A stretch of DNA of 30,000 bases from Shewanella halifaxensis HAW-EB4 (GCF_000019185.1 NC_010334.1:259976-289975); one strand, 5' to 3'; counted from the stretch's first letter, positions 9,793 to 26,876 are shown. A program made the numbers and translations. The notes: generated from the letters alone by a model not told the origin.

Positions 9793-9802
9793 GGCTAGAA
9801 GA

Positions 9803-13897: not shown

Positions 13898-13993
13898 TCA
13901 AAGTTCCAGAGTGAGTCATAGAGGCTCAAGCTTTAAGAGGGAGTGCAACCCAATAACGCTTAAACCGATTAGCACCTCAGGCAGCACGCTTAA

Positions 13994-14019
13994 TAATTGA
14001 AACTATTAATTGAAACTAT
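13994..14019. repeat. Perfect 13-bp tandem direct repeat TAATTGAAACTAT x2
   Basis: 13994..14006 equals 14007..14019 exactly. Lies about 50 nt upstream of the esterase start codon. Confidence 0.8.
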
Positions 14020-14030
14020 AGGCAGCTGAA

Positions 14031-14042
14031 CAACCATGGTTG
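14031..14042. promoter_or_regulatory. Perfect 12-bp palindrome CAACCATGGTTG
   Basis: Read directly. Flanked by GGCAG on both sides and located 29 nt upstream of the esterase ATG. Confidence 0.3.
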
Positions 14043-14070
14043 GCAGACTGCAATTGAGAAGGAAAGCGGT

Positions 14071-15009
14071 ATGCCGTTAGATCCAAAAGTCGCACTGTAT
14101 TTGCAACAAGTGCGTGATTCTGGCGCACAAGCCTATGAAGACATGACCCCCGCAGAGTCTAGACGCCTCGATATGAATGAGCTGACGAAGACGAAAGCCG
14201 ATCGAGTGTTAGAGCCCGTGGCCGCGATAGAGCATAGCTTTATTCCTGGACCCACTGCAGATCTGCCCATTCGGATCTACCGTCCTAAAGGTGACACGAG
14301 TGAGTTACAGCCGGCGATTATCTTTATTCATGGCAGCGGTTGGGTGGTATCGAACATAGAGACCAATGACCATTTTAGCCGTGCCCTCGCTAATCGCACC
14401 GGATCGGTAGTGATCGCGATTAATTATCAAAAGGCACCTGAGCACAAGTTTCCCATCCCAATGGATGACTGCTATGCATCGACATTGTGGATCTTTGAGC
14501 ATGCGACTTTGCTGGGATTAGACTCGAACCGTATCGGCATCTTAGGTGACAGTGCCGGTGGTAATTTAGCAGCGGCGGTGACGCTAAGGCTGCGTGACGA
14601 ACAGGGGCCAAAATTGGCTTACCAAGTACTCGTTTATCCAGCGGTGCAATATGGTTGGCAAACGCCATCGGCTATCGCTCATGCAGAAGGTTATCTATTG
14701 CAACAGGCCAGTATGAAGTATTACTGGGGCCACTACCTGCGTAGCGAAGCCGACGCACAAAATCCCTATTGTTCACCGCTGAATGCCCTGAGCCACAAAG
14801 ATCTGCCGCCAACACTTATCTATACCGCAGAGTTTGATCCATTATGCGATGACGGCTATCTCTATGCCCGAGAATTACAAGGCAGTGGTGTTACAGTCAA
14901 ATACCGCTGTTTTGACGGCGTGATCCATGGGTTTATTAAGATGCTTGGGGTGTTTGATCAGGCCGATGAGTTTCTAGATGAACTTAAGCAAGATCTGTTA
15001 GAGATCTAG
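14071..15009 (+). CDS. Alpha/beta hydrolase, hormone-sensitive-lipase (fold-3) family carboxylesterase
   Basis: 312 aa. Oxyanion-hole motif HGSGW (a variant of HGGG) and nucleophile elbow GDSAGG, with a C-terminal DxL...HGF arrangement typical of the family. AAGGAA Shine-Dalgarno. Confidence 0.85.
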   Translation: MPLDPKVALYLQQVRDSGAQAYEDMTPAESRRLDMNELTKTKADRVLEPVAAIEHSFIPGPTADLPIRIYRPKGDTSELQPAIIFIHGSGWVVSNIETNDHFSRALANRTGSVVIAINYQKAPEHKFPIPMDDCYASTLWIFEHATLLGLDSNRIGILGDSAGGNLAAAVTLRLRDEQGPKLAYQVLVYPAVQYGWQTPSAIAHAEGYLLQQASMKYYWGHYLRSEADAQNPYCSPLNALSHKDLPPTLIYTAEFDPLCDDGYLYARELQGSGVTVKYRCFDGVIHGFIKMLGVFDQADEFLDELKQDLLEI

Positions 15010-15040
15010 GTGTGATTAGTTAAAAACATAACTTGGGAAT

Positions 15041-15072
15041 GCTCACGAAACAAACGGTTTCGTGAGCTTGTT
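15041..15072 (+). terminator. Terminator hairpin after the esterase gene
   Basis: 11-bp perfect stem GCTCACGAAAC / GTTTCGTGAGC (15041..15051 / 15057..15067), followed by TTGTT. Confidence 0.55.
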
Positions 15073-15198
15073 CGAAGAATCATCAACTTGTTCCTCTAGA
15101 AAAATTAATTCGCATCTTATTGTGCTCACAGTTACATTTTTACTCTAAAACCTTGTGCTAGTCTCGTGCATCATGCACTTAAACTATGTATATAAAAT

Positions 15199-16089
15199 AT
15201 GAATAATAACATCCCATTAAGGGCGTTACAGGTTTTTGAATCATGCGCAAGGCTGGAAAGCTGCTCGCTTGCTGCGAATGAGTTATGCATCACTCAGAGC
15301 GCGGTCTCTCAACAGATAAAGCTGCTTGAAGATTACTTCTTAGAAAAGCTATTTCACCGCAATGCGGGCAAAATTACTCTGACTGAATCAGGGCTTGAAC
15401 TTAGGCAAAGATTAGCGCCGGTTTTTTATGATTTAAACAGTGTGTGTGCCAGTTTGGTGCCCGATATGTCTAACGAAGTTCGAGTACATTCTTATAACTC
15501 TTTAGCCGCCCGTTGGTTAGTACCTAAGATGGCTAAGCTGAGAAAAGAGCACCCTGAGTTCAACATCAATGTTGGTATGTTTCAAGATGATGTAGAGATG
15601 AGCGATATGATCGCCGATATCTTTATTATCACCCGCGAATGCCAAGACGGCTATACCATTACTCCGTTAGTCGAAGAGAAGCTGGTGGCTTTTTGTAGCC
15701 CTGAATATTTGCAAAAACACCCAGAGATCTCCTTAAGTACTTTCCATGAGCAGACACTACTTTACTCAAAACACAAAGATTATGGTGTCGATTGGGAAGG
15801 CTGGTTTAGAGATAACAAAGTCGCTGTCGGCCCATTACAGCGAAAAATTATTTTCAACCATAATATGTTGGCAGTTCAGGCAGCAATTTTTGGTCAGGGG
15901 ATCGTGCTAGGCCTAGAGCAAACGCTACAAGTAGAATTAGACTCAGGAAACCTGGTGAAGTTAGATCTCCCCCATTGCTATACAGGCTGGACCTACTCAA
16001 TCGCTTATAAGTCTTCAAGAAAGCGGGACGCCCGTATAACCAAGATTGTCGATTGGATAATTAAAGAATATGCGGGCAGCGTATCTTAG
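15199..16089 (+). CDS. LysR-family transcriptional regulator (GcvA/AmpR-like)
   Basis: 296 aa. N-terminal wHTH LRALQVFESCARLESCSLAANELCITQSAVSQQIKLLE, followed by a LysR substrate-binding domain. Confidence 0.88.
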   Translation: MNNNIPLRALQVFESCARLESCSLAANELCITQSAVSQQIKLLEDYFLEKLFHRNAGKITLTESGLELRQRLAPVFYDLNSVCASLVPDMSNEVRVHSYNSLAARWLVPKMAKLRKEHPEFNINVGMFQDDVEMSDMIADIFIITRECQDGYTITPLVEEKLVAFCSPEYLQKHPEISLSTFHEQTLLYSKHKDYGVDWEGWFRDNKVAVGPLQRKIIFNHNMLAVQAAIFGQGIVLGLEQTLQVELDSGNLVKLDLPHCYTGWTYSIAYKSSRKRDARITKIVDWIIKEYAGSVS

Positions 16090-16214
16090 CCGCAATTGTT
16101 ATTTATCTGATTAAAGCTGTATCAGTACTAATCGAGAAGCTGAGGGAGAAGGTTTACTCGTGATTGGGGAAACTGTGGAAGAGAGTTAAATATTGCATTG
16201 TTTAGAGTGATTTA

Positions 16215-16245
16215 GTGGCCACTAAAGTTAGTGGCCACAGTTTTT
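16215..16245. terminator. Palindromic hairpin GTGGCCACT-AAAGTT-AGTGGCCAC plus T-run (copy 1)
   Basis: 9-bp GC-rich stem followed by AGTTTTT on the plus strand. It lies between the convergent lysR (+) and dsbI (-) genes. The T-run favours termination of plus-strand transcripts, and an A-run precedes the hairpin on the minus-strand reading. Confidence 0.55.
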
Positions 16246-16268
16246 AATAACGTATGGTTGATTAGTCG

Positions 16269-16904
16269 TTACTTCTTAAGCGGAAGAAGCTTCTTCAGTG
16301 AGCGAACCCAACCAAAGGTCAACGGCGCCAAACAGACCATAAATACGGTATAAGCGATTATGCAGTAATGTGCCATATTCATGCCCAGTAGAGTCCAATC
16401 GTCTTCACCACAGCCGCCCGTTGGAGCAAACTCAAATGGTAGCCACTCATCAAGTGGTAGGTTGAGTGGGAAGCGTGGATCGGTTGAACAAGCTGAGCCA
16501 GCAGCATCGCCTGCAGCAGCAAAGAAGTCCATCGTCTCATCGACTACCATGTGCGCCGCATCATGGATCTTCATTAACTCAACAGACCACATCCAGCCCT
16601 GAATGACTGCGTACCACGCCAGTAATAAACCTAAGAACTTGAGTATGTGATTTCTCGGATCGATCAGAATGATCAGACCCGCAAGCACGATACAGCACTG
16701 GCTAAAGCGAATGTAAACACATAGCTCACAGGGATCCATCGCCAAGAACAGTTGGAAATAGAAGATGGCCGACAGAATAAGAAATAGTGCTCCTCCAACC
16801 ATCACTAACCAGATGGGCCGATGGTCTTGCATATGGGTTAAGCTGTCGGCAGGGGTGGCCTTAAACTGCCCCCAGAACTCTTTCAATCGTTGCTGCAATG
16901 ACAT
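16269..16904 (-). CDS. dsbI: DsbB-family disulfide oxidoreductase DsbI (membrane partner of DsbL), copy 1
   Basis: 211 aa with four predicted TM stretches. First periplasmic loop CELC (CxxC) and a second loop Cys pair (GSAC...GGCGEDDW), as in DsbB. Sits in the assT-dsbL-dsbI order known from uropathogenic E. coli. Confidence 0.85.
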   Translation of the reverse strand: MSLQQRLKEFWGQFKATPADSLTHMQDHRPIWLVMVGGALFLILSAIFYFQLFLAMDPCELCVYIRFSQCCIVLAGLIILIDPRNHILKFLGLLLAWYAVIQGWMWSVELMKIHDAAHMVVDETMDFFAAAGDAAGSACSTDPRFPLNLPLDEWLPFEFAPTGGCGEDDWTLLGMNMAHYCIIAYTVFMVCLAPLTFGWVRSLKKLLPLKK

Positions 16905-16913
16905 AATAATCCC

Positions 16914-17525
16914 TTACTTAGCAGACAGTTCAGCGATAAGCTCTTTGAGCATATCCATCGAACGGATTGATTTGGTGTTGATCAGGTATTTACCGTTAAC
17001 GGTAATCGCAGGCACACCTTGGATCTTTGCAACTTCAACCCCTTTATCCCATTTGGTCATTAGCTGTTTTACTTTTGGATCTTGAGCATGAGTATCAAAC
17101 TCGGCGCGGCTCATGCCTAATGTATCGAGGGTAAATGCAATGGTAGAATCGGCATCTTTAAATTTGACCTTCTTGACGTGGTACTGGTCGTAGTACTTGT
17201 CCTTTAATTGCTTGAATGTCTTCTCGCCTTTGATCTCTTTAGCGATGGCCAATGCCGTTGATTTCTCTACGCCAAAAGGTGGTTTACTGGTGATATGGTA
17301 CTGATCCAAAGTGCTGCCAGCAGGCATTAACTTATCGTTAGGAATACCTGCTTTTTCATACTTGTAGCAGAAAGGACAGTTAATCGAGTAGATCTTCACT
17401 ACTTGGTTCGGGGCATTAAATTGAGCCACTTCTGGCAATACTTGGTATTCAACTCCCTCTGTTGCTGCATGGGCACCAAATGATAGAAATAGAGTTGCTG
17501 CGATGGCGGAAAGTGTTTTTTTCAT
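16914..17525 (-). CDS. dsbL: Periplasmic thiol:disulfide oxidoreductase DsbL (DsbA paralogue), copy 1
   Basis: 203 aa. Signal peptide MKKTLSAIAATLFLSFGAHA. Thioredoxin-fold active site CPFC, the motif I recall for DsbL (DsbA has CPHC). Conserved cis-Pro region GVPAITVNGKY. Confidence 0.85.
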   Translation of the reverse strand: MKKTLSAIAATLFLSFGAHAATEGVEYQVLPEVAQFNAPNQVVKIYSINCPFCYKYEKAGIPNDKLMPAGSTLDQYHITSKPPFGVEKSTALAIAKEIKGEKTFKQLKDKYYDQYHVKKVKFKDADSTIAFTLDTLGMSRAEFDTHAQDPKVKQLMTKWDKGVEVAKIQGVPAITVNGKYLINTKSIRSMDMLKELIAELSAK

Positions 17526-17560
17526 GAGTGAGTTCCATTAAAAATAGGGTTAACAGCTGT

Positions 17561-17582
17561 CAGCGCCTTTTAAAAGGCGCTG
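17561..17582 (-). other. Perfect 22-bp palindrome CAGCGCCTTTT/AAAAGGCGCTG between assT1 and dsbL1
   Basis: Read directly, starting 11 nt after the assT1 stop. No immediate T-run on the minus strand, so likely an intercistronic attenuator or stabiliser. It lies just outside the duplicated segment. Confidence 0.5.
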
Positions 17583-17593
17583 CCATTGGTTTA

Positions 17594-19354
17594 TTACTGG
17601 TTAAACATGGCTTCTGGGTGAACTACTGTTGAGCGGTAACCCGGCTCGTGTTTAGTCAGGGTTTTAACCTTGATTTCAACTTTTACTTCATTGGTTTTTG
17701 GATCAACCTCTGTAATCCAATGCTCCGGAGCCTTATCACTTTCTAGCAGACCTGCTGAAGCTGATGCCATAAACATGGTGTTATGATCTGGCTGGAATTC
17801 AGTAATAGAGGTAATTGGGCTGTACCACTCATAGCCGCGGTCTTTACCGTATTCCCAGGTCTGTTGAACCGTCATATTGTCCATATCGACCTTGTATTCA
17901 ACACCACGAGAGTACTTCATTGTCGGTAGAGCTGGCTGCTCAAGAGAGCGTCCATCGCCATTGTCGAAGACTGTAACTGTGCCACGTTCAGGTACAGGCC
18001 AAGCGGTATGCTGAGTCCATGTCCAGTCAAAGTCACCTTCACAATCTTTGGCATCACACTTTAACTTTTTGCCCTTTTTATCAACCGGGATGAGTACCTT
18101 ATCTGCTAGATCTCCTTCCCAGCCGATAGGGGTACCAAGGATCCACTTCACTTCATCGTCACGGCCAATCTTAATCACTGCTGATTGATGACGAGAACTG
18201 ATGATGATGCTGTCGTCTTCTGCGTCATAACCAATAGAGTTGATATGTAACCAGTTGCGACCTGTATCTACACCGGCAACGTCGCCATAAGGCTCATTTG
18301 CTAGCTCTTCTGCTGACATTGTCTTACCCGCAGAGGCTACATCTACGTTTAGACACACTGCGCCCATATCCAATGAACTCAATACATCATCACGTAATGG
18401 ATCTAGGATCTTATTGAAGTCCCATACCTTAACGACTTCGCCATTGTTATTAACTTCAATTACATGGTCACGAATAGAGTCAACTTTTATCCCTGTTGGA
18501 GTGATATAGTCTTTTTTGCCCACACGTAGCAACAGGTTGCCGTTTGGCATTTCAGTCACTTCATGAGAGAAACCGATATAGCCGCGAGGAAGATCACGTT
18601 TGAAAATTGGTTTGCCGATAAAGTCGTACTTGGCATAGTAAGGTGACAGGAAGCCATTATGTTGATTAAACATCAGGCCCTGACCGAAGATAAGCTTACC
18701 GTCACGGGTTTGTTTAAATGACATGGACCCGCCTGGACGGTCATAAATTACATCGGCACTTAAGTGCCAGCGTACATCACCGTTGGTATCAATAATATTC
18801 TGGGTTGGTTTCCAATCCCACTTATCACGCAGATCGGGTGTGATGACTTGGCCATCGACTAGATAAAATCTATCTTCAAACCCCTTAGCAACTTTAATCG
18901 GTTCATATTCATACTGAGTTCTATCCTGACCATCAATATGTTGATGTGGTATATCATTGGTACGGATCTTATATGTCTCTTTAATTTTTTTACCATCAAG
19001 CTTGTAGGAGACTTCAACTTCATTAAGGTGGTCAGGGTAGAGACCAAACACCGGAATCCCGTTATGTGTATTCAACTGAGTAGTACTGACGGGATAATCA
19101 ATATCAATGCCTTTACGGTCTTTACCTTTGACGGAAACCGTGGCGTTTGTAATCGTTTTACCTCCCAAATCAATCACTGCAACCAATGGACTAAAGTCAT
19201 AAGGGTCAACGTAGACAAAGCCTAATTGTCCTTGAGCAACAGCGGAAGATGAAGTACCTGGTAAATTTCCCGCAGCATTTACTGATAATGAAATTGCCGA
19301 GCAAGTAAGCACCGAGGCTGTTAAAATCGCTGACATTATTTTATTAAGTTTCAT
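17594..19354 (-). CDS. assT: Periplasmic arylsulfate sulfotransferase (ASST), paralogue 1
   Basis: 586 aa with a Sec signal peptide (...SLSVNAA). Conserved blocks GRNWLHINSI, TQHTAW, DNGDGR and QQTWEYGKDRGY are shared with paralogue 2 and fit the about 600-aa beta-propeller ASST of E. coli. Followed by dsbL-dsbI. Confidence 0.85.
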   Translation of the reverse strand: MKLNKIMSAILTASVLTCSAISLSVNAAGNLPGTSSSAVAQGQLGFVYVDPYDFSPLVAVIDLGGKTITNATVSVKGKDRKGIDIDYPVSTTQLNTHNGIPVFGLYPDHLNEVEVSYKLDGKKIKETYKIRTNDIPHQHIDGQDRTQYEYEPIKVAKGFEDRFYLVDGQVITPDLRDKWDWKPTQNIIDTNGDVRWHLSADVIYDRPGGSMSFKQTRDGKLIFGQGLMFNQHNGFLSPYYAKYDFIGKPIFKRDLPRGYIGFSHEVTEMPNGNLLLRVGKKDYITPTGIKVDSIRDHVIEVNNNGEVVKVWDFNKILDPLRDDVLSSLDMGAVCLNVDVASAGKTMSAEELANEPYGDVAGVDTGRNWLHINSIGYDAEDDSIIISSRHQSAVIKIGRDDEVKWILGTPIGWEGDLADKVLIPVDKKGKKLKCDAKDCEGDFDWTWTQHTAWPVPERGTVTVFDNGDGRSLEQPALPTMKYSRGVEYKVDMDNMTVQQTWEYGKDRGYEWYSPITSITEFQPDHNTMFMASASAGLLESDKAPEHWITEVDPKTNEVKVEIKVKTLTKHEPGYRSTVVHPEAMFNQ

Positions 19355-19368
19355 AGTTAATCCCTTTA

Positions 19369-20115
19369 TTAGAATTTATATTGGACTGAGTAAAAAAATG
19401 CATCGTGATAGCCTTTTTTACCTAAGTTATTTTCTGCGTAACGATAACTGACACCCACTGACCAATTATTGTTGATTATCCAGTTTGCTCGTAGTTGACC
19501 ATTAAAACCAAAGTCTTCCATGTCGCCTGCTAATTCCAAATATTGTTCATTTCTGCCGAAATAAAACTCTTGCCACCAGACAAATTTAAAATCTTGATCA
19601 AATAATGATAAATCATGACTAATATTTAAATACGCGTAGCCACCATTAAAACCTTGCTCATCAAAATTAGAGTCAAAAGCCTTATATGTGGCATTCACTA
19701 TGTGTGCGGCGAACGCTAGCTGTACATAAGTATTGTCATAGTTTTTATCCCAGCTAAATCCAAGCAATGTATTGGTTTCTCCCCAGACAGGCATTGATTT
19801 ATCAAACACTTGGCCGTATAAGTTGAAATCCGTTTCGCCAATATTTATTTGACCGACTAGATTTATTTCAGTCCCATAAATGTCTGTATTATCGAAGTTT
19901 TCCAATGTGACATGACCATAGATATCGCCAAGTGCAGTGCCATGTGCACCTATCATTTTGATGTATGGATTATTATTTTTTGACTCACCAAAGTAGTCAG
20001 ATGCGCTACTTCTCCAATCCATCAAGCCCGTCTCAACGGCTAACATTGCTGCATTCGAAGAAAAGGAAATACTGAGAGCTAACGCAGCTATTCCTGATTG
20101 TAATTTCTTATTCAT
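19369..20115 (-). CDS. Small outer-membrane beta-barrel channel, Tsx/OmpK-like, paralogue 1
   Basis: 248 aa with signal peptide ...SFSSNAA. Alternating aromatic/hydrophilic beta-strand pattern and a C-terminal ...YSVQYKF ending in Phe, typical of OMPs. The Tsx/OmpK family call rests on general resemblance only. Confidence 0.7.
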   Translation of the reverse strand: MNKKLQSGIAALALSISFSSNAAMLAVETGLMDWRSSASDYFGESKNNNPYIKMIGAHGTALGDIYGHVTLENFDNTDIYGTEINLVGQINIGETDFNLYGQVFDKSMPVWGETNTLLGFSWDKNYDNTYVQLAFAAHIVNATYKAFDSNFDEQGFNGGYAYLNISHDLSLFDQDFKFVWWQEFYFGRNEQYLELAGDMEDFGFNGQLRANWIINNNWSVGVSYRYAENNLGKKGYHDAFFYSVQYKF

Positions 20116-20279
20116 AACTCACCTCTATTGAAAGTGATTGCGATGTTATGAATTGAAGCGCGATGATAACTAGAGGAGGCTCACAAAAAAAAATTAGAAT
20201 ATCTTTATATTATTTAAACCTTGATTGTAGGCATGAAAAATAAAAAATTATTTTTTTTAGAGATGGGATTCACAAAAAA
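20116..20279. promoter_or_regulatory. Divergent omp1-assT1 / tetR intergenic region
   Basis: 164-nt AT-rich spacer between divergent start codons. This is the expected location of the TetR operator and both promoters. No individual site is assigned. Confidence 0.5.
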
Positions 20280-20945
20280 ATGGAAAGCAAGACTTTAGAA
20301 CATATTTTAAATGTGTCAGAACAGCTAATTTATAAAGATGGTGTGATCGGGTTTAAGTTTTGCACTGTAGCAAAAGAAGCTGGAATCTCTACAACTAGCT
20401 TATATAAGTTCTTTGGAAATAAAGAAGATATATTGGTTGCTTTGGCAAGTAAAAGTTTTATGAACACCAAAAATAAAAAGTGGTGGTTAAATTTAGAAGG
20501 TGATGCGCTAATAAAAGTCATTGCTTATTATATTTTACAGTTAGATGTCGCTCATGATTTTCCCTTTTACTCATCTATGTCAACGCTAACAAGTAATCAG
20601 CTTATTTGCGGTCGTTCTGCTCACCCTCATATCAGCGCATTGAATAAGAATGCCTATGGTTTTTGGCAAACACCTATTGCGCTATTGCAGCAGGCTAGAG
20701 GGCAGGGGAGTTGTCAACTCTGTGACCAAGCGATTACTAGACTGTGTGCACTGATCTCTATGATTATCAGAGGTCAGGAAGTTGTATCTTGTGCTGAGGT
20801 AGGTAGAGCTTGCAGTGCAGAAGCGAATCTCACAACCCAATGGATTATTGAATTTTGTTTTAAGCAAGTGGGCTTCGAATACCATTTAATTAATCATTGT
20901 ATCCAACAAGCAGATATCCTAATCACAGAGCATGGTCTTCGGTAA
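20280..20945 (+). CDS. TetR/AcrR-family transcriptional regulator
   Basis: 221 aa. N-terminal HTH FKFCTVAKEAGISTTSLYKFFGNKEDIL is typical of TetR repressors. Divergent from the omp1-assT1 operon. Confidence 0.85.
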   Translation: MESKTLEHILNVSEQLIYKDGVIGFKFCTVAKEAGISTTSLYKFFGNKEDILVALASKSFMNTKNKKWWLNLEGDALIKVIAYYILQLDVAHDFPFYSSMSTLTSNQLICGRSAHPHISALNKNAYGFWQTPIALLQQARGQGSCQLCDQAITRLCALISMIIRGQEVVSCAEVGRACSAEANLTTQWIIEFCFKQVGFEYHLINHCIQQADILITEHGLR

Positions 20946-21089
20946 CGGAACTGCTCATAAAATGCCATATGTGTTTGAAGTATGACTCAATGCAGGGAAA
21001 GTAAAGTTATGCCGTTATCCCAGTTATCAGCGGCGACGGTTATGGGTAACAGATCAGTTAAATTATCGATGTTTTGGTCACTGTTAACT

Positions 21090-21120
21090 GTGGCCACTAA
21101 AGTTAGTGGCCACAGTTTTT
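21090..21120. terminator. Palindromic hairpin GTGGCCACT-AAAGTT-AGTGGCCAC plus T-run (copy 2)
   Basis: Identical to 16215..16245. Lies between the convergent tetR (+) and dsbI copy 2 (-). Confidence 0.55.
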
Positions 21121-21143
21121 AATAACGCATGGTTGATTAGTCA

Positions 21144-21779
21144 TTACTTCTTAAGCGGAAGAAGCTTCTTCAGTGAGCGAACCCAACCAAAGGTCAACGG
21201 CGCCAAACAGACCATAAATACGGTATAAGCGATTATGCAGTAATGTGCCATATTCATGCCCAGTAGAGTCCAATCGTCTTCACCACAGCCGCCCGTTGGA
21301 GCAAACTCAAATGGTAGCCATTCATCAAGTGGTAGGTTGAGTGGGAAGCGTGGATCGGTTGAACAAGCTGAGCCAGCAGCATCGCCTGCAGCAGCAAAGA
21401 AGTCCATCGTCTCATCGACTACCATATGCGCCGCATCATGGATCTTCATTAACTCAACAGACCACATCCAGCCCTGAATGACTGCGTACCACGCCAGTAA
21501 TAAACCTAAGAACTTGAGTATGTGATTTCTCGGATCGATCAGAATGATCAGACCCGCAAGCACGATACAGCACTGGCTAAAGCGAATGTAAACACATAGC
21601 TCACAGGGATCCATCGCCAAGAACAGTTGGAAATAGAAGATGGCCGACAAAATAAGAAATAGTGCTCCTCCAACCATCACTAACCAGATGGGTCGATGGT
21701 CTTGCATATGGGTTAAGCTGTCGGCAGGGGTGGCCTTAAACTGCCTCCAGAACTCTTTCAATCGTTGCTGCAATGACAT
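21144..21779 (-). CDS. dsbI: DsbB-family oxidoreductase DsbI, copy 2
   Basis: 211 aa. Differs from copy 1 by one residue (G12R). Confidence 0.85.
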   Translation of the reverse strand: MSLQQRLKEFWRQFKATPADSLTHMQDHRPIWLVMVGGALFLILSAIFYFQLFLAMDPCELCVYIRFSQCCIVLAGLIILIDPRNHILKFLGLLLAWYAVIQGWMWSVELMKIHDAAHMVVDETMDFFAAAGDAAGSACSTDPRFPLNLPLDEWLPFEFAPTGGCGEDDWTLLGMNMAHYCIIAYTVFMVCLAPLTFGWVRSLKKLLPLKK

Positions 21780-21788
21780 AATAATCCC

Positions 21789-22400
21789 CTATTTAGCAGA
21801 CAGTTCAGCGATAAGCTCTTTGAGCATATCCATCGAACGGATTGATTTGGTGTTGATCAGGTATTTGCCGTTAACGGTAATCGCAGGCACACCTTGGATC
21901 TTTGCAACTTCAACCCCTTTATCCCATTTGGTCATTAGCTGTTTTACTTTTGGATTTTGAGCATGAGTATCAAACTCGGCACGGCTCATGCCTAATGTAT
22001 CGAGGGTAAATGCAATGGTAGAATCGGCATCTTTAAATTTGACCTTCTTGACGTGGTACTGGTCGTAGTACTTGTCCTTTAATTGCTTGAATGTCTTCTC
22101 GCCTTTGATCTCTTTAGCGATGGCCAATGCCGTTGATTTCTCTACGCCAAAAGGTGGTTTACTGGTGATATGGTACTGATCCAAAGTGCTGCCAGCAGGC
22201 ATTAACTTATCGTTAGGAATACCTGCTTTTTCATACTTGTAGCAGAAAGGACAGTTAATCGAGTAGATCTTCACTACTTGGTTTGGGGCGTTAAATTGAG
22301 CCACTTCCGGTAATACTTGGTACTCAACTCCCTCTGTTGCTGCATGGGCACCAAATGATAGAAATAGAGTTGCTGCGATGGCGGTAAGTGTTTTTTTCAT
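21789..22400 (-). CDS. dsbL: Periplasmic oxidoreductase DsbL, copy 2
   Basis: 203 aa. Differs from copy 1 by two residues (S6T, and D to N in THAQ[D/N]PKVK). CPFC active site retained. Confidence 0.85.
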   Translation of the reverse strand: MKKTLTAIAATLFLSFGAHAATEGVEYQVLPEVAQFNAPNQVVKIYSINCPFCYKYEKAGIPNDKLMPAGSTLDQYHITSKPPFGVEKSTALAIAKEIKGEKTFKQLKDKYYDQYHVKKVKFKDADSTIAFTLDTLGMSRAEFDTHAQNPKVKQLMTKWDKGVEVAKIQGVPAITVNGKYLINTKSIRSMDMLKELIAELSAK

Positions 22401-23120
22401 GTTATCTCCAAAGATATATTAAATTTGTTGGATTTTGAAAACTTATATTGTTAATAGTTATTGTTTTTGTCGATGTAAAAATAAAACGTCATTGTTTGTT
22501 ATAACTATAAGATTTTAATTTGATTAATATTGGATGCTGGCTATTTCGTTACTATCTTATTTTTAAATGACATATATTGATTGTGATGGTGGTCACGTTT
22601 TATTTGCAGTCCTATTTATAAGTGTTATTAATTTTAAGTCGGCTGGAGTTTGATATTCAATTTTTAGTTTTTGAATTATGTTTATGGAAAAAATCAATAT
22701 CATTGGATCTGTTCATTCTGTATTGGTTTCCTTTGTTGTGGTCGCAACGTGTTGTTTTGTATGTGATTACTTTGATTTTGTTGATGTTTTTTTATTGTTT
22801 TTTATGGTTTTTAGATATTTTTAACATTGGTTTCCATAAGGTTTGATCCCTGTTGGTTTATCTTTTATTAGCTGAAACCCTCATGAATTATAAGTTTTAG
22901 ATGTATAAAGTTCATTGTTTTATGTTATTTATATAATCGATATGTAAATTCGCATTTCTTTAATTCATGGTTTTTTATTTGTTGGTCGTTATATTGTGGT
23001 GATGAAAAAAGTTGGTGCTTTGATTATTGTGACATCATTCTCAAATAAAGTTGTTCTAGTTAATTATTGTTTTTAGGGTTGATTACAGTGATTACAAAAT
23101 AATTATTAATTGGAGAAGTC
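22401..23120. promoter_or_regulatory. 720-bp AT-rich divergent region between dsbL copy 2 and assT2
   Basis: No credible ORF. The plus strand is strikingly T/G-rich with many T-tracts. It must hold promoters for dsbL2-dsbI2 (leftward) and assT2-omp2 (rightward). Confidence 0.55.
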
Positions 23121-24911
23121 ATGAAACGTAATATTTTAACTGCAGCTATTGTTGCTGCATTATTTCAGTCAGTTGTTTCTTTTGAATCAAATGCCGCTGG
23201 TTTTAAACCAGCACCTGCAGCGGGCCAACTAGGTGCGGTGCTTGTTAATCCGTATGGTAACTCACCTCTAACTGCGGTATTAGATTTGGGCAGTAAGCGC
23301 CCAACTGATGTGACGGTAACAGTTCATGGTAAGGGCAATAAAGGAGTTGATATTAGTTACCCTGTGGGTCAGCAAACAATCAATACCCATGACGGTATTC
23401 CCTTGTTTGGTTTATATGCTGATCACAGCAACCAAGTGACAGTGAAATACAACCTAGACGGTAAAAAGGTCAAAGAAGACTATAAGGTGCTAACCGGACC
23501 TATCACTAACGAATATATGGATAACAGAAATATCACTGTTATGCAGGAAGTTCAGGTGAAGAAGGTTGCCAAAGGCTTTGAAAACCGCTTGTATATGGTC
23601 AACAGTCATACTTACAACCAGCAAGGTTCAGATCTGCATTGGTCAGGTCAAAAGAGTAAAGATGCAGGTATATTTGAATCTTCGCCAGCCATGGGTTCAT
23701 TACCATTCGATAACGCCCCTATGACTTATGTCGTTGATACAAATGGTGATATTCGCTGGTGGTTAGATCAGGATGCGGTTTATGACGGTGTAGGAATCGA
23801 TGTAAACAAGCGTGGATACTTGATGGGACTGCATGATAATGGTGAAGGCCGTATTACCTTTGTTCAAGGCCAGCAGTACGGCACCTTTGACTTGTTAGGT
23901 AACTTTGAACAACGTCGCTTGCCACGTGGATATGTTGACGCCTCCCATGAACATAACATCATGCCAAATGGCCACTCTTTAGTTCGTGCGGCTAAGGCTA
24001 ACTATAAAAACCCTCAAGGCGATATCGTTCATACCGTACGAGACCATATTTTACAGATTGACCAACAGGGTAACTTGGTTGATGTGTGGAACCTGAACGA
24101 AATTATGGATCCATATCGTGATGCATTGCTTGAAGCCTTAGATATGGGAGCGGTTTGTTTGAACGTCGATATCGATCAGATGGGTCAAACTGCAGAAATG
24201 GAAATTGATGCCCCTTATGGCGATATTCCAGGTATTGCCCCCGGTCGTAACTGGGCTCATATCAACTCTATTGAATATGATCCAAAAGATGACTCTATTA
24301 TCCTTTCTTTCCGTCATCAAGGTGTAGCCAAAGTGACTCGTGATAAGGAAGTGAAGTGGATCTTGGCACCTTATGAAGGTTGGAACAAAGAGCTTTCAAA
24401 GAAACTGCTTAAGCCAGTGGATAAGAATGGTAAGCCTATCAAGTGTACCGATAAAGGTGTGTGTGATGGTGACTTCGACTTTACCTATACTCAGCACACG
24501 GCATGGCTAAATAACACCACAGGCAATCTGACGGTTCTGGATAATGGTGACGGTCGTGCCCATGAGCAACCAGCCCTACCAACTATGAAGTATACCCGTT
24601 TCGTCGAATACAAAATTGACGACGAAAACATGACTGTGCAGCAGACATGGGAATACGGTAAAGATCGTGGTTATGACTGGTACAGCCCGATCACGTCTAA
24701 CGTGGAGTATATGGAAGATAAGAACACCATGTTTGGTTTCGGTGGTTCGATTCATCTCTATACCCCTGGTGAGCGCACTATCGGCAAAATCAATGAGATC
24801 GGTTATGACGATATGAAGGTCAAAGTAGAGATAGACGTGTTGTCTGACAAGGCAAACTCTCCTCACTACCGCGCAATTATTGTGAACCCTACTAGCCAAT
24901 TTGGCTTGTAA
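23121..24911 (+). CDS. assT: Periplasmic arylsulfate sulfotransferase (ASST), paralogue 2
   Basis: 596 aa with signal peptide ...SFESNAA and a GGAG Shine-Dalgarno. Same conserved blocks as paralogue 1 (GRNWAHINSI, TQHTAW, DNGDGR, QQTWEYGKDRGY). Confidence 0.85.
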   Translation: MKRNILTAAIVAALFQSVVSFESNAAGFKPAPAAGQLGAVLVNPYGNSPLTAVLDLGSKRPTDVTVTVHGKGNKGVDISYPVGQQTINTHDGIPLFGLYADHSNQVTVKYNLDGKKVKEDYKVLTGPITNEYMDNRNITVMQEVQVKKVAKGFENRLYMVNSHTYNQQGSDLHWSGQKSKDAGIFESSPAMGSLPFDNAPMTYVVDTNGDIRWWLDQDAVYDGVGIDVNKRGYLMGLHDNGEGRITFVQGQQYGTFDLLGNFEQRRLPRGYVDASHEHNIMPNGHSLVRAAKANYKNPQGDIVHTVRDHILQIDQQGNLVDVWNLNEIMDPYRDALLEALDMGAVCLNVDIDQMGQTAEMEIDAPYGDIPGIAPGRNWAHINSIEYDPKDDSIILSFRHQGVAKVTRDKEVKWILAPYEGWNKELSKKLLKPVDKNGKPIKCTDKGVCDGDFDFTYTQHTAWLNNTTGNLTVLDNGDGRAHEQPALPTMKYTRFVEYKIDDENMTVQQTWEYGKDRGYDWYSPITSNVEYMEDKNTMFGFGGSIHLYTPGERTIGKINEIGYDDMKVKVEIDVLSDKANSPHYRAIIVNPTSQFGL

Positions 24912-24923
24912 AAAAATGAATTC

Positions 24924-24941
24924 CGGGCCCGTATGGGCCCG
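24924..24941 (+). other. GC-rich intercistronic hairpin CGGGCCC-GTAT-GGGCCCG after assT2
   Basis: 7-bp all-GC stem 13 nt after the assT2 stop, followed only by a weak T-run (CTAATTT). The omp2 Shine-Dalgarno follows immediately. Confidence 0.5.
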
Positions 24942-24960
24942 CTAATTTAGGAGGCTCACA

Positions 24961-25719
24961 ATGAAATTATCTAGATCTGTCTTAGCCGTATTAGTGGGAA
25001 TTGGCGGTATTAGTTCGGCGAGTGCTGAAGTGCTATTTCAGCAAAATAATGTGATTGTTGGCTACGAGTATTTACTCGATGCCGAAGATAAAAACCCCAA
25101 TCTCTATGATCAAGCCCACCTCATCCTAGGTCATACCACAATCGCCGACTGGGGAAGCGCCACGGGGTGGTTGCGGTTTGAAAACCCACTGGACAGCTCG
25201 GAAAACCAGCAAGGGAAAGATGCCGGAGCAACAACCAAAGCCTGGTTAAAGCTTGATTATAACCTTGGTGACTCGCCATTTAACCTTTGGGTGCAGTCAT
25301 TTACCTGCGCCAATAAACCAGTGGTGGAGCAAAACTTCTATTTAGGTGGCTCCTATGATGTTGCTATTGGAAAACTCAAAGGCACAGTCGGTGTCGGTAT
25401 GCAGTATGCGTACGGCAGTTTTTCCCCAACAGGAAAGTCCTTTAATGGTGCCTCTGGTACTGCTGCGACGATAATGCTGGGCTACCCGCTAACACCGCAT
25501 TGGTTTGCTAAGGCTTATTACGAAGCTCAATTTAACCGAAGTGACGAACATAGGGAGGTATTTGGATTCGACTCATACGGCCATCAGGCTATTGTCGGTG
25601 TGGATTACAGGTTTAATTCTCAGTTCTTCGTTAGCACCCTGTATAAACATAGGCAGAGCTGGGGTGGAGCACTCAATGGTGGTGGAGAGTTGCTATTCGA
25701 AGCGGGGTACAATTTCTAG
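24961..25719 (+). CDS. Small outer-membrane beta-barrel channel, Tsx/OmpK-like, paralogue 2
   Basis: 252 aa with signal peptide ...ISSASA and a strong AGGAGG Shine-Dalgarno. The C-terminal ...LFEAGYNF resembles the Tsx C-terminus (..VVGYNF as I recall it). Confidence 0.7.
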   Translation: MKLSRSVLAVLVGIGGISSASAEVLFQQNNVIVGYEYLLDAEDKNPNLYDQAHLILGHTTIADWGSATGWLRFENPLDSSENQQGKDAGATTKAWLKLDYNLGDSPFNLWVQSFTCANKPVVEQNFYLGGSYDVAIGKLKGTVGVGMQYAYGSFSPTGKSFNGASGTAATIMLGYPLTPHWFAKAYYEAQFNRSDEHREVFGFDSYGHQAIVGVDYRFNSQFFVSTLYKHRQSWGGALNGGGELLFEAGYNF

Positions 25720-25901
25720 GAGTCAGTGGGATACTTAGTCATAAAGCTTTAGCTATAAACCTTTAGCTATGAATACAGAGTATCCCATATCCCAACTTTT
25801 CAATATATGTGAACACCTTATGAGATAACGTATTGGGTGCTATTTTGCCTCTATTGTTACGGTTAATATCTAGCCATATACGCTAAAGTTCCCAAGGATG
25901 T

Positions 25902-26876
25902 ATGATGAACACCAATGAGAGTGTTAAAGATCTTTCTGTTGCTCACCTTCAGCTAATAGTCTGTCTTATTAAGCATGGAAACGCCTGCGTAGCATCAGAT
26001 GAGCTCGGTATGAGTCAGTCGACAATCAGTTATCATCTACGTCGCGTGCGAAGTATTTTTTCTGATGAGATGTTTGTAAGAACCGGAAAAGGGCTTAAAC
26101 CCACCGAGCGCTGTCTTCAAGTTGGTCATTTTGCCCAAGACTTGATTAACCGTGTTGAAGAGGAATTAATTCACGGTAATGACTTTGAGGCAACCCATAT
26201 TGAGCGAGAGCTGAGTTTAATTGCTGATGATACTGCCTGTGGTTGGTTTGGGGAGTTATTTGTCGATCTGCACAAGGCACTGCCTAAGGTAAACCTGTGT
26301 GCCCGTCCCTGGTATCTAAATGCAATGAAAGACTTAGATAACGGCGCCGTTCACTTTGGATTGCATATTATGCAAAGCGGTATCAAGGGGATTTATGATC
26401 TAGAAGTGGCTCCCTGCTATCGTTTATGTGTGGTGCGAGATGGGCATCCTCTGGTGTCGCAAGGTGAGGTAACGCTGGAAGATCTGGCTATGTATCCGGT
26501 AATTTTGAATGACTTAGCTGGCTGGAATAATAACGGTCACTCGGTGATGGAAACCGTCCTTAAAAACCACGGCCTTAAAGCAAATTTAGTAGGGCGCTTA
26601 GGTTATGTAAATAGCATTTTTAGTGCGTTACAGGGCTGTAATGCGATTACCTACACTTCAGCCGTGTCTCTACCTAAGGATCTGTCAGGCTTATCTCTAC
26701 TTAAGGCGCCTGCAGCACTTGATGCCGTCGAATGCAACTACCGGCTTTATATCAGTAAGACACGCTATGGTTCACAGGAAACTAATTACTTAATTGAGTT
26801 TCTTTATAATTCTTTTAAGCGCTTTGCTACTCGTCAATATGAAAGGCCAGAGGTCGCCCCTATTATTAGAAGTTGA
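25902..26876 (+). CDS. LysR-family transcriptional regulator
   Basis: 324 aa. N-terminal wHTH LIKHGNACVASDELGMSQSTISYHLRRVRSIF, followed by a LysR-type effector domain. The start could be the second ATG (25905). Confidence 0.85.
   Translation: MMNTNESVKDLSVAHLQLIVCLIKHGNACVASDELGMSQSTISYHLRRVRSIFSDEMFVRTGKGLKPTERCLQVGHFAQDLINRVEEELIHGNDFEATHIERELSLIADDTACGWFGELFVDLHKALPKVNLCARPWYLNAMKDLDNGAVHFGLHIMQSGIKGIYDLEVAPCYRLCVVRDGHPLVSQGEVTLEDLAMYPVILNDLAGWNNNGHSVMETVLKNHGLKANLVGRLGYVNSIFSALQGCNAITYTSAVSLPKDLSGLSLLKAPAALDAVECNYRLYISKTRYGSQETNYLIEFLYNSFKRFATRQYERPEVAPIIRS

What the first reader, a model, noticed from the sequence alone, without database searches (positions are those of the whole stretch)
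16215..22401. The DsbL-DsbI oxidase cassette is present twice at about 98-99 % identity, while the ASST and OMP genes it accompanies are old, diverged paralogues
16215..17526 and 21090..22401 align base for base at a constant 4875-nt offset, in the same orientation, with no indels.

By manual comparison I count about 18 substitutions in about 1312 nt. Only three change an amino acid: DsbI G12R, DsbL S6T, and one D to N in DsbL. The rest are synonymous or non-coding, so both copies look intact and under purifying selection.

By contrast, AssT1 and AssT2 are only roughly half identical by eye, and the two OMPs are barely alignable.

The published system I know of is a single assT-dsbL-dsbI operon in uropathogenic E. 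coli, where DsbL/DsbI is a dedicated oxidase for ASST. Here there are two ASST clients, each with a private and nearly identical oxidase pair. The second pair is detached and transcribed divergently from its presumed client.

This implies either a recent duplication of only the oxidase cassette or ongoing gene conversion that keeps it homogeneous.
Basis: partly seen in the sequence, partly recalled or inferred. Interest (0 to 1): 0.72.

Follow-up and report, generated by a model that had tools for sequence, protein, structure and literature searches.

The report
Twin oxidase cassettes homogenised by gene conversion
A marine Shewanella carries two almost identical copies of the DsbL-DsbI disulfide-oxidase gene pair, one beside each of two old, diverged arylsulfate sulfotransferase genes; comparison with related genomes shows that repeated gene conversion inside each genome keeps the copies alike, so this is a clean new example of a known process rather than a new kind of system.

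Summary
Window 16215-17526 and 21090-22401 align at offset 4875 without indels. There are 18 substitutions in 1312 nt (98.6%), three of them non-synonymous (DsbI G12R; DsbL S6T and D149N). Both copies are intact. ASST1 and ASST2 are 47% identical, and the two OMPs are barely alignable.

The window is Shewanella halifaxensis HAW-EB4, by exact DsbL protein matches. S. pealeana and S. marinintestina have the same two-cassette layout, so both positions predate speciation.

Even so, the copies group by genome. For the window against S. marinintestina, 178 informative sites group by genome and 0 by position. Synonymous divergence is 0.03-0.06 within the window and about 1.5-1.9 between species. Tract ends differ between species, and the S. 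marinintestina copies are a significant mosaic. This is concerted evolution by gene conversion, not one recent duplication.

Deeper in the tree, the ASST2-linked cassette of this clade belongs to the ASST1-linked lineage (97% bootstrap). That implies an older replacement of the cassette alone.

I also found a block of about 7.2 kb that is nearly identical between S. halifaxensis and S. pealeana and ends at cassette 1. This points to recent inter-species recombination.

All components and the mechanism are already known. Interest is moderate.

The parts
16215..17526 (-). Repeat copy 1: terminator-like hairpin, dsbI1 and dsbL1, last genes of the omp1-asst1-dsbL-dsbI operon
   Evidence: Constant-offset identity of 98.6% to 21090-22401, with sharp edges
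21090..22401 (-). Repeat copy 2: hairpin, dsbI2 and dsbL2, a free-standing bicistron divergent from asst2
   Evidence: Position conserved in S. pealeana, S. marinintestina, S. fidelis, S. indica and Shewanella sp. CP085636
16914..17525 (-). dsbL1 (203 aa; CPFC active site; signal peptide)
   Evidence: PF01323. Best PDB hits are Salmonella DsbL 3L9U (1e-36) and E. coli DsbL 3C7M (1e-34), against DsbA at about 1e-13. Identical to ABZ74806.1 of S. halifaxensis HAW-EB4
16269..16904 (-). dsbI1 (211 aa; DsbB-family quinone-linked re-oxidase of DsbL)
   Evidence: PF02600, 2.8e-25. NCBIfam DsbI model scores 154.9 bits, better than DsbB at 101 bits, but both are below their cut-offs
21789..22400 (-). 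dsbL2 (203 aa; differs from dsbL1 by S6T and D149N)
   Evidence: Identical to ABZ74811.1 of S. halifaxensis HAW-EB4
21144..21779 (-). dsbI2 (211 aa; differs from dsbI1 by G12R)
16215..16238 (+). Perfect hairpin followed by a T-run on the + strand (copy 1). Forms the 3' edge of the repeat and is a likely terminator for the convergent LysR gene and for dsbI
   Evidence: Terminator scan. S. pealeana position 1 has the same hairpin with a compensatory G-C to A-T change, and S. marinintestina position 1 has a related one
21090..21113 (+). Same hairpin, copy 2, downstream of the convergent TetR gene
17594..19354 (-). asst1, periplasmic arylsulfate sulfotransferase paralogue 1, presumed client of the oxidase
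   Evidence: PF05935 and PF17425. 513 bits to E. coli ASST 3ELQ. Cys-x5/6-Cys pair and the His of the HTAW motif conserved
19369..20115 (-). omp1, YdiY/Tsx-like outer-membrane channel, first gene of operon 1
   Evidence: NF008574, 9e-29
20280..20945 (+). TetR-family regulator, divergent from omp1-asst1-dsbLI_1
   Evidence: PF00440. The TetR/OMP1/ASST1 synteny is conserved
22401..23120 (.). 720-nt AT-rich divergent control region between dsbL2 and asst2. It lies outside the repeat and carries the separate promoter and SD sequence (GGAG) of cassette 2
   Evidence: Sequence. Promoter-like sites on both strands
23121..24911 (+). asst2, ASST paralogue 2 (47% identical to ASST1)
24961..25719 (+). 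omp2, Tsx-like channel
   Evidence: PF03502, 5e-18
25902..26876 (+). LysR-family regulator linked to the asst2 cluster
   Evidence: Synteny conserved in S. fidelis, S. indica and S. pealeana
17561..17582 (-). Hairpin CAGCGCCTTTTAAAAGGCGCTG between the asst1 stop and the dsbL1 start. Specific to position 1
   Evidence: The stem is conserved at S. marinintestina position 1

Best explanation
**The genes.** Two ancient ASST operons sit side by side in Shewanella halifaxensis:
- TetR <-> omp1-asst1-dsbL-dsbI
- LysR-omp2-asst2 <-> dsbL-dsbI

Each has its own copy of the DsbL (periplasmic dithiol oxidase) and DsbI (membrane re-oxidase) pair. By analogy with E. coli and Salmonella, this pair forms the disulfide that ASST needs.

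**The process.** The two dsbL-dsbI cassettes are direct repeats 4.9 kb apart. Recurrent homologous recombination without crossover (gene conversion) keeps them nearly identical. It acts only on the stretch where the two loci are homologous, from the dsbL start codon to the hairpin after dsbI. Promoters, ribosome-binding sites, regulators and the client genes lie outside that stretch and diverge freely.

**The result.** Each ASST operon brings its own oxidase under its own regulation, but the cell makes effectively one DsbL/DsbI protein pair.

**What is shown.**
- The structure of the repeat.
- That both cassette positions are old.
- That paralogues cluster by genome.
- The low synonymous divergence between copies.
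- The mosaic tracts.

**What is inferred.**
- RecA-type conversion as the molecular route.
- Separate regulation as the reason both copies are kept.
- DsbL/DsbI-to-ASST oxidation in this organism.
For: 1. **Both positions are ancestral.** The identical layout occurs in S. pealeana, with the same 4875-nt offset, and in S. marinintestina. The divergent asst2 <-> dsbLI unit and the omp1-asst1-dsbLI unit also exist separately in S. indica and S. chilikensis, and in S. indica they lie 72 kb apart on one scaffold.

2. **Copies cluster by genome.** For the window against S. marinintestina, 178 informative sites group (W1,W2 | SmA,SmB), and 0 support either alternative. Bootstrap support is 100% for W1+W2 and 94% for SmA+SmB.

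3. **The similarity extends to synonymous sites.**

| Comparison | dS |
|---|---|
| W1 vs W2 | 0.03-0.06 |
| SmA vs SmB | 0.22-0.35 |
| Window vs S. marinintestina, same genes and neighbours | about 1.35-1.9, or saturated |

   dN/dS between the window copies is about 0.07.

4. **Tract ends differ between species.** In the window the tract runs from ATG-1 through the dsbI stop and the hairpin. In S. marinintestina it runs from ATG-7 to inside the 3' end of dsbI, so the C-termini differ. In Shewanella sp. GXUN23E two contigs begin at the same point in dsbI, are near-identical for 165 nt, and then diverge.

5. **Mosaicism.**
   - The S. marinintestina copies have identical runs of 233 and 162 nt among 64 differences (0 of 20000 permutations).
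   - The S. pealeana position-2 copy is window-copy-2-like at both ends and window-copy-1-like in the core (exact runs test P = 0.012).

6. **Contrast case.** Where the cassettes are unlinked (72 kb apart in S. indica, on separate contigs in S. chilikensis), they are only 60% (DsbL) and 67% (DsbI) identical.

7. **The same pattern occurs elsewhere.**
   - All seven cassettes of Shewanella sp. DAU334 form one clade (100% bootstrap), although they sit next to ASSTs that fall in the ASST1 or ASST2 clades.
   - One DAU334 pair is 98.2% identical over the coding span only.
Against: - Within the window alone the 18 differences are not significantly clustered (P = 0.088). The window by itself fits a single recent full-length conversion as well as continuing conversion.
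- Homogenisation is not universal. The S. pealeana position-1 cassette is about 12% diverged from its position-2 cassette, although that position-2 copy lies in an imported block.
- The direction of the last conversion in S. halifaxensis is unresolved.
- The 3' edge lies beyond the stop codon, which needs pre-existing flank homology. This is supported only by a similar hairpin at position 2 of strain CP085636.
- No expression or recombination data exist. The role of DsbL/DsbI towards these ASSTs is inferred from E. coli and Salmonella work (cited in PMC13426309 and PMC4152235).
Confidence: 0.8

Rival explanations
1. A single recent duplication of the dsbL-dsbI cassette, inserted next to asst2 in S. 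halifaxensis, with no conversion involved.
For: The repeat has sharp, cassette-like edges from ATG-1 to the end of a hairpin. Divergence is low at 1.4%. The 18 differences are not significantly clustered.
Against: Position 2 is already occupied by a dsbLI cassette in S. pealeana, S. marinintestina, S. fidelis, strain CP085636 and S. indica, with orthologous flanks including the TTTGGAG SD region. An insertion would have to replace the resident cassette precisely, which is itself a conversion. S. marinintestina independently shows the same within-genome similarity with different tract ends.
Confidence: 0.07
2. Assembly artefact: one real cassette was placed twice.
For: Near-identical repeats are a classic source of misassembly. 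In the draft genome GXUN23E the contigs do break inside dsbI.
Against: The copies differ at 18 sites and have unique flanks on both sides. The matching protein records are from S. halifaxensis HAW-EB4, whose longest contig is 5,226,917 bp, and it encodes two distinct DsbL proteins (ABZ74806 and ABZ74811). The same layout occurs in separately assembled genomes: the S. pealeana-type contig of GCA_965137395.1 and S. marinintestina. The S. pealeana ATCC 700345 genome also encodes the same two DsbL proteins.
Confidence: 0.01
3. The similarity is maintained by purifying selection or codon bias on two old copies, without any sequence exchange.
For: dN/dS is low, about 0.07 within the genome and 0.02-0.05 between species. 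The proteins are clearly constrained.
Against: Selection on protein sequence cannot hold synonymous sites. dS is 0.03-0.06 between the copies, against about 1.5-1.9 for the same genes between species. The 54 nt of non-coding 3' flank is also shared.
Confidence: 0.01
4. The similarity was imported. The recent inter-species transfer of the ~7.2-kb block (asst2'...asst1) brought in a foreign position-2 cassette, which then overwrote position 1 in S. halifaxensis. That would be one very recent conversion triggered by horizontal transfer, not long-term concerted evolution.
For: A block from about 24739 to 17527 is 99.6-100% identical to S. pealeana in a background of 10-15% divergence, and it ends within 40 nt of the dsbL1 start. 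Five of the 18 differences have copy 1 matching S. pealeana position 1.
Against: Copies 1 and 2 differ by 1.4%, while the adjacent block differs from S. pealeana by only 0.11% (4 differences in 3563 nt). Homogenisation therefore predates the transfer. There are 4 copy-1-unique and 7 copy-2-unique alleles that cannot be unconverted remnants. Window copy 1 against S. pealeana position 1 is 88% identical, which is background level and is expected if copy 1 is native. S. marinintestina shows concerted evolution with no such block.
Confidence: 0.1

Closest known systems
assT-dsbL-dsbI operon of uropathogenic E. coli CFT073 (Grimshaw et al. 2008, as cited in PMC13426309 and PMC4152235) and the Salmonella astA / dsbL-dsbI locus
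   Same: The three components are the same: a periplasmic ASST with a conserved Cys pair, a DsbL with a CPFC motif, and a DsbB-family DsbI. Cluster 1 has the same order, asst-dsbL-dsbI. Cluster 2 resembles Salmonella in that dsbL-dsbI is a separate bicistron (PMC4152235).
   Different: Here there are two ASST paralogues at 47% identity, each with an outer-membrane channel gene and a regulator, and two oxidase cassettes at 98.6% nt identity. Cluster 2 is transcribed divergently from its ASST. DsbL is about 45-50% identical to the enterobacterial protein by eye from the alignment, and DsbI scores below the NCBIfam equivalog cut-off.
Concerted evolution of duplicated bacterial genes by gene conversion (tufA/tufB, rRNA operons, amoCAB/haoAB copies; survey in PMC6053082)
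   Same: Paralogues are more alike within a genome than orthologues between genomes. Synteny is conserved. The similarity extends to synonymous sites. In PMC6053082 most of the concertedly evolving genes encode subunits of the same complex or pathway, and DsbL and DsbI are likewise a redox pair.
   Different: This is an accessory, niche-specific two-gene cassette rather than a core high-expression gene. It is embedded in two operons whose other genes are old, diverged paralogues. The time depth is short (within a genus), with lineage-specific tract ends. dsb genes are not mentioned in the main text of that survey.
Campylobacter jejuni dsbA2-dsbB-astA operon with a second DsbA paralogue (PMC4152235)
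   Same: A DsbL-lineage oxidase and a DsbB homologue are co-located with an ASST client, and there is more than one DsbA-type oxidase per genome.
   Different: The C. jejuni paralogues are functionally diverged with different substrate spectra. The two pairs here are essentially the same protein.

Membership tests
DsbL (DsbA-like dithiol oxidase dedicated to ASST) | DsbA-fold thioredoxin domain with a Cys-Pro-Phe-Cys active site and a signal peptide | tested here: met
   PF01323 and PF13462 hits. CPFC at residues 50-53, aligned to the CPFC of 3L9U and 3C7M. Hydrophobic N-terminus ending AHA-AT.
DsbL (DsbA-like dithiol oxidase dedicated to ASST) | Closer to characterised DsbL than to housekeeping DsbA | tested here: met
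   E = 1.3e-36 and 1.5e-34 to Salmonella and E. coli DsbL, against 1e-13 or weaker to DsbA structures. The NCBIfam DsbA equivalog scores only 69 bits against a cut-off of 279.
DsbL (DsbA-like dithiol oxidase dedicated to ASST) | Oxidises ASST in vivo and is re-oxidised by DsbI | not testable with these tools
   Only genomic linkage to asst and dsbI is available. That linkage is conserved across more than 20 loci.
DsbI / DsbB2 (DsbB-family partner of DsbL) | DsbB-family membrane protein with two periplasmic Cys pairs | tested here: met
   PF02600 at 2.8e-25 over residues 29-193. The sequence has a CELC motif and a later pair of Cys residues, in ...GSACSTDP... and ...GGCGEDDW....
DsbI / DsbB2 (DsbB-family partner of DsbL) | Reaches the curated DsbI equivalog score | tested here: not met
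   NF003304 scores 154.9 bits against a cut-off of 212. This is still better than DsbB (101 bits against 157). It is a diverged member of the DsbI branch, not an enterobacterial equivalog.
PAPS-independent arylsulfate sulfotransferase (ASST) | N-terminal Ig-like domain plus beta-propeller ASST domain, a catalytic His, and the single disulfide near the active site | tested here: met
   PF17425 and PF05935 in both proteins. ASST1 scores 513 bits to 3ELQ. The motifs C-x5/6-C-x-(D/S)DFD and TQHTAW are conserved in both paralogues.
Concerted evolution by gene conversion | The duplication predates speciation (conserved synteny of both copies) | tested here: met
   Same layout in S. pealeana and S. 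marinintestina. Both unit types are present in S. indica.
Concerted evolution by gene conversion | Paralogues within a genome are closer than positional orthologues, including at synonymous sites | tested here: met
   178 sites against 0. Bootstrap 100% and 94%. dS 0.03-0.06 against about 1.5-1.9.
Concerted evolution by gene conversion | Mosaic tracts, or recurrent and independent events | tested here: met
   S. marinintestina mosaic (0 of 20000 permutations). S. pealeana position-2 mosaic (P = 0.012). Species-specific tract ends. The window's own differences are not significantly clustered (P = 0.088).
Concerted evolution by gene conversion | RecA-dependent non-reciprocal transfer demonstrated | not testable with these tools
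   This needs marked-allele experiments.

The most novel reading that the evidence does not exclude
dsbL-dsbI may behave as a portable, client-independent module across Shewanella and Ferrimonas. On this reading it is repeatedly copied next to new or existing ASST paralogues and homogenised genome-wide, even between loci that are not adjacent, so that each genome converges on one oxidase 'type' whatever the age of its ASST clients.

That would imply either selection for a single co-adapted DsbL/DsbI redox pair per cell, to avoid mismatched cross-talk between pairs, or a recombination-prone cassette structure bounded by the start codon and a terminal hairpin.

Evidence consistent with this reading:
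- All seven DAU334 cassettes are monophyletic, although they sit next to ASSTs that fall in the window's ASST1 or ASST2 clades.
- One DAU334 pair, at about 2.2 and 3.3 Mb in the chromosome record, is 98.2% identical over the coding span only.
- The two F. pelagia cassettes are monophyletic.
- In the window's clade the position-2 cassette was replaced by the ASST1-linked lineage.

Probability: 0.25. Interest if true: 0.55.

Novelty: new member of a known kind. Interest (0 to 1): 0.42.

Why it matters
This is a clean natural experiment on the specificity of dedicated disulfide oxidases. Two sulfotransferases that are only 47% identical are served by what is effectively one DsbL/DsbI protein pair. 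In S. indica the same two clients have oxidase pairs only 60-67% identical. The oxidase therefore does not need to co-diverge with its client.

The locus also shows how gene conversion can act on a sub-operon module bounded by the limits of homology. Coding sequence is homogenised, while promoters, regulators and neighbouring genes evolve independently. That is a simple route to having the same enzyme under two regulatory programmes.

Practically, the near-identical repeats break draft assemblies (GXUN23E). They also confound orthology calls for DsbL and DsbI in Shewanella. Trees built on these genes reflect the genome they sit in, not the history of the locus.

Tried and rejected
- **Exact-protein look-ups** of the window's DsbL1 and DsbL2 in the contig index found nothing. 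Neither did P0056. The source organism was instead identified through cluster membership.
- **Deletion between the direct repeats in S. fidelis.** I tested whether S. fidelis, which has a single cassette next to asst2, arose this way. Its downstream neighbour is an MgtE-like gene, not LysRa/esterase, so the simple deletion product is not what is there.
- **Direction of the last conversion.** I first inferred copy 1 to copy 2 from the 3' end, because the longer DsbI C-terminus and the hairpin are shared with position 1 of S. marinintestina and S. pealeana. However, strain CP085636 already has that hairpin at position 2. The hairpin is therefore older than the last conversion, and the direction stays open.
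- **Clustering of the window's own 18 differences**: not significant (P = 0.088).
- **Rfam scan of 15000-27000**: no RNA family.
- **The inverted repeats I1 and I2** (17806-17983 with 24522-24699, and 18185-18297 with 24208-24320) are simply the asst1/asst2 paralogy on opposite strands.
- **Bootstrap values from Biopython get_support** looked inconsistent for some nodes. I recomputed them with my own split counting and used those values.

Full report
**1. The observation**

The repeat is real and is exactly as described.
- At a constant offset of 4875 nt, window 16215-17526 matches 21090-22401 with no indels. There are 18 mismatches in 1312 nt (98.63%), and identity drops to random levels immediately outside.
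- The differences are 2 non-coding, 12 synonymous, 1 stop-codon change (TAA to TAG) and 3 non-synonymous (DsbI G12R, DsbL S6T, DsbL D149N).
- All four ORFs are intact.
- ASST1 (17594-19354, minus strand) and ASST2 (23121-24911, plus strand) are 47% identical.
- The two outer-membrane proteins align only weakly, at 22% over 147 aa.

**2. Anatomy**

The layout on the window is:

| Coordinates | Strand | Gene |
|---|---|---|
| 15199-16089 | + | LysR |
| 16269-16904 | - | dsbI1 |
| 16914-17525 | - | dsbL1 |
| 17594-19354 | - | asst1 |
| 19369-20115 | - | omp1 (YdiY/Tsx-like) |
| 20280-20945 | + | TetR |
| 21144-21779 | - | dsbI2 |
| 21789-22400 | - | dsbL2 |
| 22401-23120 | . | 720-nt AT-rich spacer |
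| 23121-24911 | + | asst2 |
| 24961-25719 | + | omp2 (Tsx-like) |
| 25902-26876 | + | LysR |

- Cassette 1 is the tail of an omp1-asst1-dsbL-dsbI operon.
- Cassette 2 is a separate bicistron, divergent from asst2-omp2.
- The repeat's 5' edge is 1 nt upstream of the dsbL ATG. The two copies therefore have different ribosome-binding regions (TAATGGAAC...ATG against TTTGGAG...ATG) and different promoters.
- The 3' edge is the far side of a perfect hairpin, 54 nt past the dsbI stop, with a T-run on the + strand.

**3. Identity of the parts**

- The 203-aa protein has a DsbA fold and a CPFC motif. It is far closer to solved Salmonella and E. coli DsbL (1e-36, 1e-34) than to any DsbA (1e-13 or weaker).
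- The 211-aa protein is DsbB-family. It scores best against the NCBIfam DsbI model, but below its cut-off (154.9 against 212 bits).
- Both ASSTs have the Ig-like and ASST domains. ASST1 matches E. coli ASST 3ELQ at 513 bits. The Cys pair that forms the single essential disulfide and the catalytic-His motif are conserved in both.
- That DsbL/DsbI is the dedicated oxidase of ASST comes from work on E. coli CFT073 and Salmonella, as summarised in PMC13426309 and PMC4152235. It is an inference for this organism.

**4. Source**

The two DsbL proteins are identical to ABZ74806.1 and ABZ74811.1 of Shewanella halifaxensis HAW-EB4, whose longest contig on record is 5,226,917 bp. Together with the 18 differences and the unique flanks, this makes an assembly artefact very unlikely.

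**5. Both cassette positions are old**

- The S. pealeana-type contig of GCA_965137395.1 (loci L024 and L026) has the same layout with the same 4875-nt offset. It encodes the same two DsbL proteins as S. pealeana ATCC 700345.
- S. marinintestina has the same layout, with two extra genes (an AraC regulator and an MBL-fold alkyl/aryl-sulfatase-like protein) between cassette 2 and TetR.
- S. fidelis has the asst2 <-> dsbLI unit alone.
- S. indica and S. chilikensis carry both units unlinked. In S. indica they lie 72 kb apart on one scaffold; in S. chilikensis they are on separate contigs. S. carassii yielded only the omp1-asst1-dsbLI unit. In S. indica and S. chilikensis the two cassettes are only about 60% (DsbL) and 66-67% (DsbI) identical.
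- The position-specific upstream sequences are orthologous across species.

**6. The copies nevertheless group by genome**

- For the window against S. marinintestina, over 1277 aligned columns, 178 informative sites support (W1,W2 | SmA,SmB). None supports pairing by position.
- Nucleotide identity is 98.6% for W1/W2 and 92.4% for SmA/SmB, but only 80-81% between the genomes.
- dS is 0.03-0.06 for W1/W2 and 0.22-0.35 for SmA/SmB. It is about 1.5-1.9 (near saturation) for the cassette genes between the species, and about 1.35 or higher for the neighbouring genes.
- dN/dS between the window copies is about 0.07.
- NJ bootstrap support is 100% for W1+W2 and 94% for SmA+SmB.
- This is the signature of concerted evolution. 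Selection on protein sequence cannot explain it, because synonymous sites and 54 nt of non-coding flank are shared.

**7. The events are recurrent and lineage-specific**

- Tract ends differ. The window tract runs from ATG-1 through the hairpin. The S. marinintestina tract runs from ATG-7 to inside the 3' end of dsbI, leaving different C-termini.
- In the draft genome of Shewanella sp. GXUN23E two contigs start at the same base inside dsbI. They have one difference in 165 nt, then diverge towards the dsbI 3' end and completely after the stop. This is the footprint of a collapsed near-identical repeat with a tract end like that of S. marinintestina.
- The S. marinintestina copies are a mosaic. 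Differences are densely clustered and separated by identical runs of 233 and 162 nt (0 of 20000 permutations).

**8. An unexpected layer: an inter-species block**

- Against S. pealeana the background divergence is 10-15%. From about window 24739 (inside asst2) to 17527 the two species are 99.6-100% identical. There are only 4 differences in the 3563 nt spanning TetR-omp1-asst1.
- The block ends within the first 40 nt of dsbL1.
- The S. pealeana position-1 cassette is 88% identical to the window cassettes, which is background level. Its position-2 cassette lies in the block and is 98% identical to both window copies.
- W1 and W2 differ by 1.4%, ten times more than the adjacent block differs between species. 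Homogenisation in the S. halifaxensis lineage therefore predates the transfer. The simplest reading is export of an S. halifaxensis-type block into S. pealeana.
- The imported position-2 copy is W2-like at both ends (8 sites) and W1-like in its core (9 of 10 sites; exact runs test P = 0.012). This suggests a further conversion event among close relatives of HAW-EB4.
- A patch of about 110 nt in the S. pealeana copy (window copy-2 coordinates 21873-21981) carries ancestral-looking alleles of unknown origin.

**9. Deeper history**

- In a DsbL+DsbI tree, all cassettes of the window's clade group with the ASST1-linked cassette of the S. indica group (97% bootstrap). This includes the ones next to asst2. 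They never group with the S. indica ASST2-linked cassette (0%).
- By contrast, ASST2 and its LysR/OMP2 neighbours match the corresponding genes of the S. indica asst2 cluster.
- So an ancestor replaced the asst2-linked cassette with a copy of the asst1-linked one.
- The same decoupling appears elsewhere. The seven cassettes of Shewanella sp. DAU334 form one clade (100%) and are 84-99% identical in protein, but only 37-51% identical to the window's. Yet they sit beside ASSTs that are 74-75% identical to the window's ASST1 or ASST2. One pair, at about 2.2 and 3.3 Mb in the chromosome record, is 98.2% identical over the coding span only.
- The two F. pelagia cassettes also pair with each other.

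**10. Mechanism and function**

- Best explanation (confidence about 0.8): RecA-type gene conversion between nearby direct repeats, confined to the region of homology. It homogenises the coding sequence while leaving expression signals distinct.
- The likely reason both copies persist is regulatory. Each ASST operon delivers its own oxidase when induced, with TetR controlling cluster 1 and a divergent promoter region plus LysR controlling cluster 2. This is inferred, not shown.
- The S. indica contrast suggests homogenisation is not functionally required. It may largely be a by-product of proximity and sequence similarity.

**11. Comparison with what is known, and verdict**

- The components match the known ASST-DsbL-DsbI system. 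Tricistronic (UPEC) and split (Salmonella) arrangements are both described (PMC4152235).
- Concerted evolution of bacterial duplicates is well documented. In a survey of 26 such genes, dsb genes are not mentioned in the main text (PMC6053082).
- I found no report of duplicated, concertedly evolving dsbLI cassettes.
- This is a new, well-resolved example of a known process acting on a known system. It is interesting for oxidase-client specificity and for modular conversion within operons, but it is not a new kind of system.

Noticed in passing
window ~17527-24739 (vs locus L026 ~2750-9999): A block of about 7.2 kb (3' four-fifths of asst2, the spacer, dsbLI_2, TetR, omp1 and asst1) is 99.6-100% identical between S. 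halifaxensis and S. pealeana, in a background of 10-15% divergence. This indicates recent inter-species homologous recombination. One end falls within the first 40 nt of dsbL1, at the edge of the repeat.
   Followed up: partly
window 21873-21981 (copy 2) vs L026 ~5545-5653: Within the otherwise near-identical block, the S. pealeana position-2 dsbL has about 16 differences in about 110 nt. They carry alleles (TYA..., WDQG) shared with more distant Shewanella cassettes. This is either a remnant of an older haplotype or a micro-conversion from an unidentified source.
   Followed up: partly
window 16215-16238 / 21090-21113; L026 ~11290-11320: The hairpin that ends the repeat shows a compensatory double change at S. 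pealeana position 1 (GTAGCCAC...GTGGCTAC against GTGGCCAC...GTGGCCAC). This argues that the stem is functional, as a terminator shared by the convergent genes.
   Followed up: partly
window 17561-17582: A 9-bp-stem hairpin (CAGCGCCTT-TTAA-AAGGCGCTG) lies between the asst1 stop and the dsbL1 start. Its stem is conserved in S. marinintestina. It could attenuate read-through or stabilise the mRNA, setting the ASST:oxidase ratio in operon 1 only.
   Followed up: no
L001 3618-5893; L025 18246-20537: S. marinintestina has an AraC-family regulator plus an MBL-fold alkyl/aryl-sulfatase-like gene inserted between cassette 2 and TetR. Strain CP085636 has the same pair after its second cassette. This links these loci to sulfate-ester metabolism. 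The genes are absent from the window.
   Followed up: no
L014-L020 (Shewanella sp. DAU334, NZ_CP136522.1): Seven dispersed dsbL-dsbI cassettes and at least nine ASST genes occur in one 4.3-Mb genome. The cassettes are monophyletic. One pair (L016 and L020) is 98.2% identical over exactly the coding span.
   Followed up: partly
L021 (Ferrimonas pelagia) 313-18001: Five ASST genes, two dsbLI cassettes (72-75% identical to each other) and several LysR genes are packed into 18 kb. This is an ASST 'island'.
   Followed up: no
L004 8423-10603 (Shewanella sp. NIFS-20-20): Here omp1 is followed directly by dsbL-dsbI with no asst1. The ASST2 orthologue lies upstream in the same orientation, without an adjacent cassette. 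This is a rearranged derivative of the two-cluster locus.
   Followed up: no
L022 1-200 and L023 1-200 (Shewanella sp. GXUN23E): Two contigs begin at the same base inside dsbI and are near-identical for 165 nt before diverging. A partial DsbL from the same genome (P0015) is truncated to 175 aa. A near-identical dsbLI repeat has broken this draft assembly.
   Followed up: partly
window 26877-26930 vs L024 3490-5430: S. pealeana has a 646-aa methyl-accepting chemotaxis protein gene between the histidine kinase and the asst2-linked LysR gene. In the window these two genes are only 55 nt apart.
   Followed up: no
window 17806-17983 / 24522-24699 and 18185-18297 / 24208-24320: The 'inverted repeats' reported by the repeat finder (72-74% complementary) are just the conserved parts of asst1 and asst2 on opposite strands.
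   Followed up: yes
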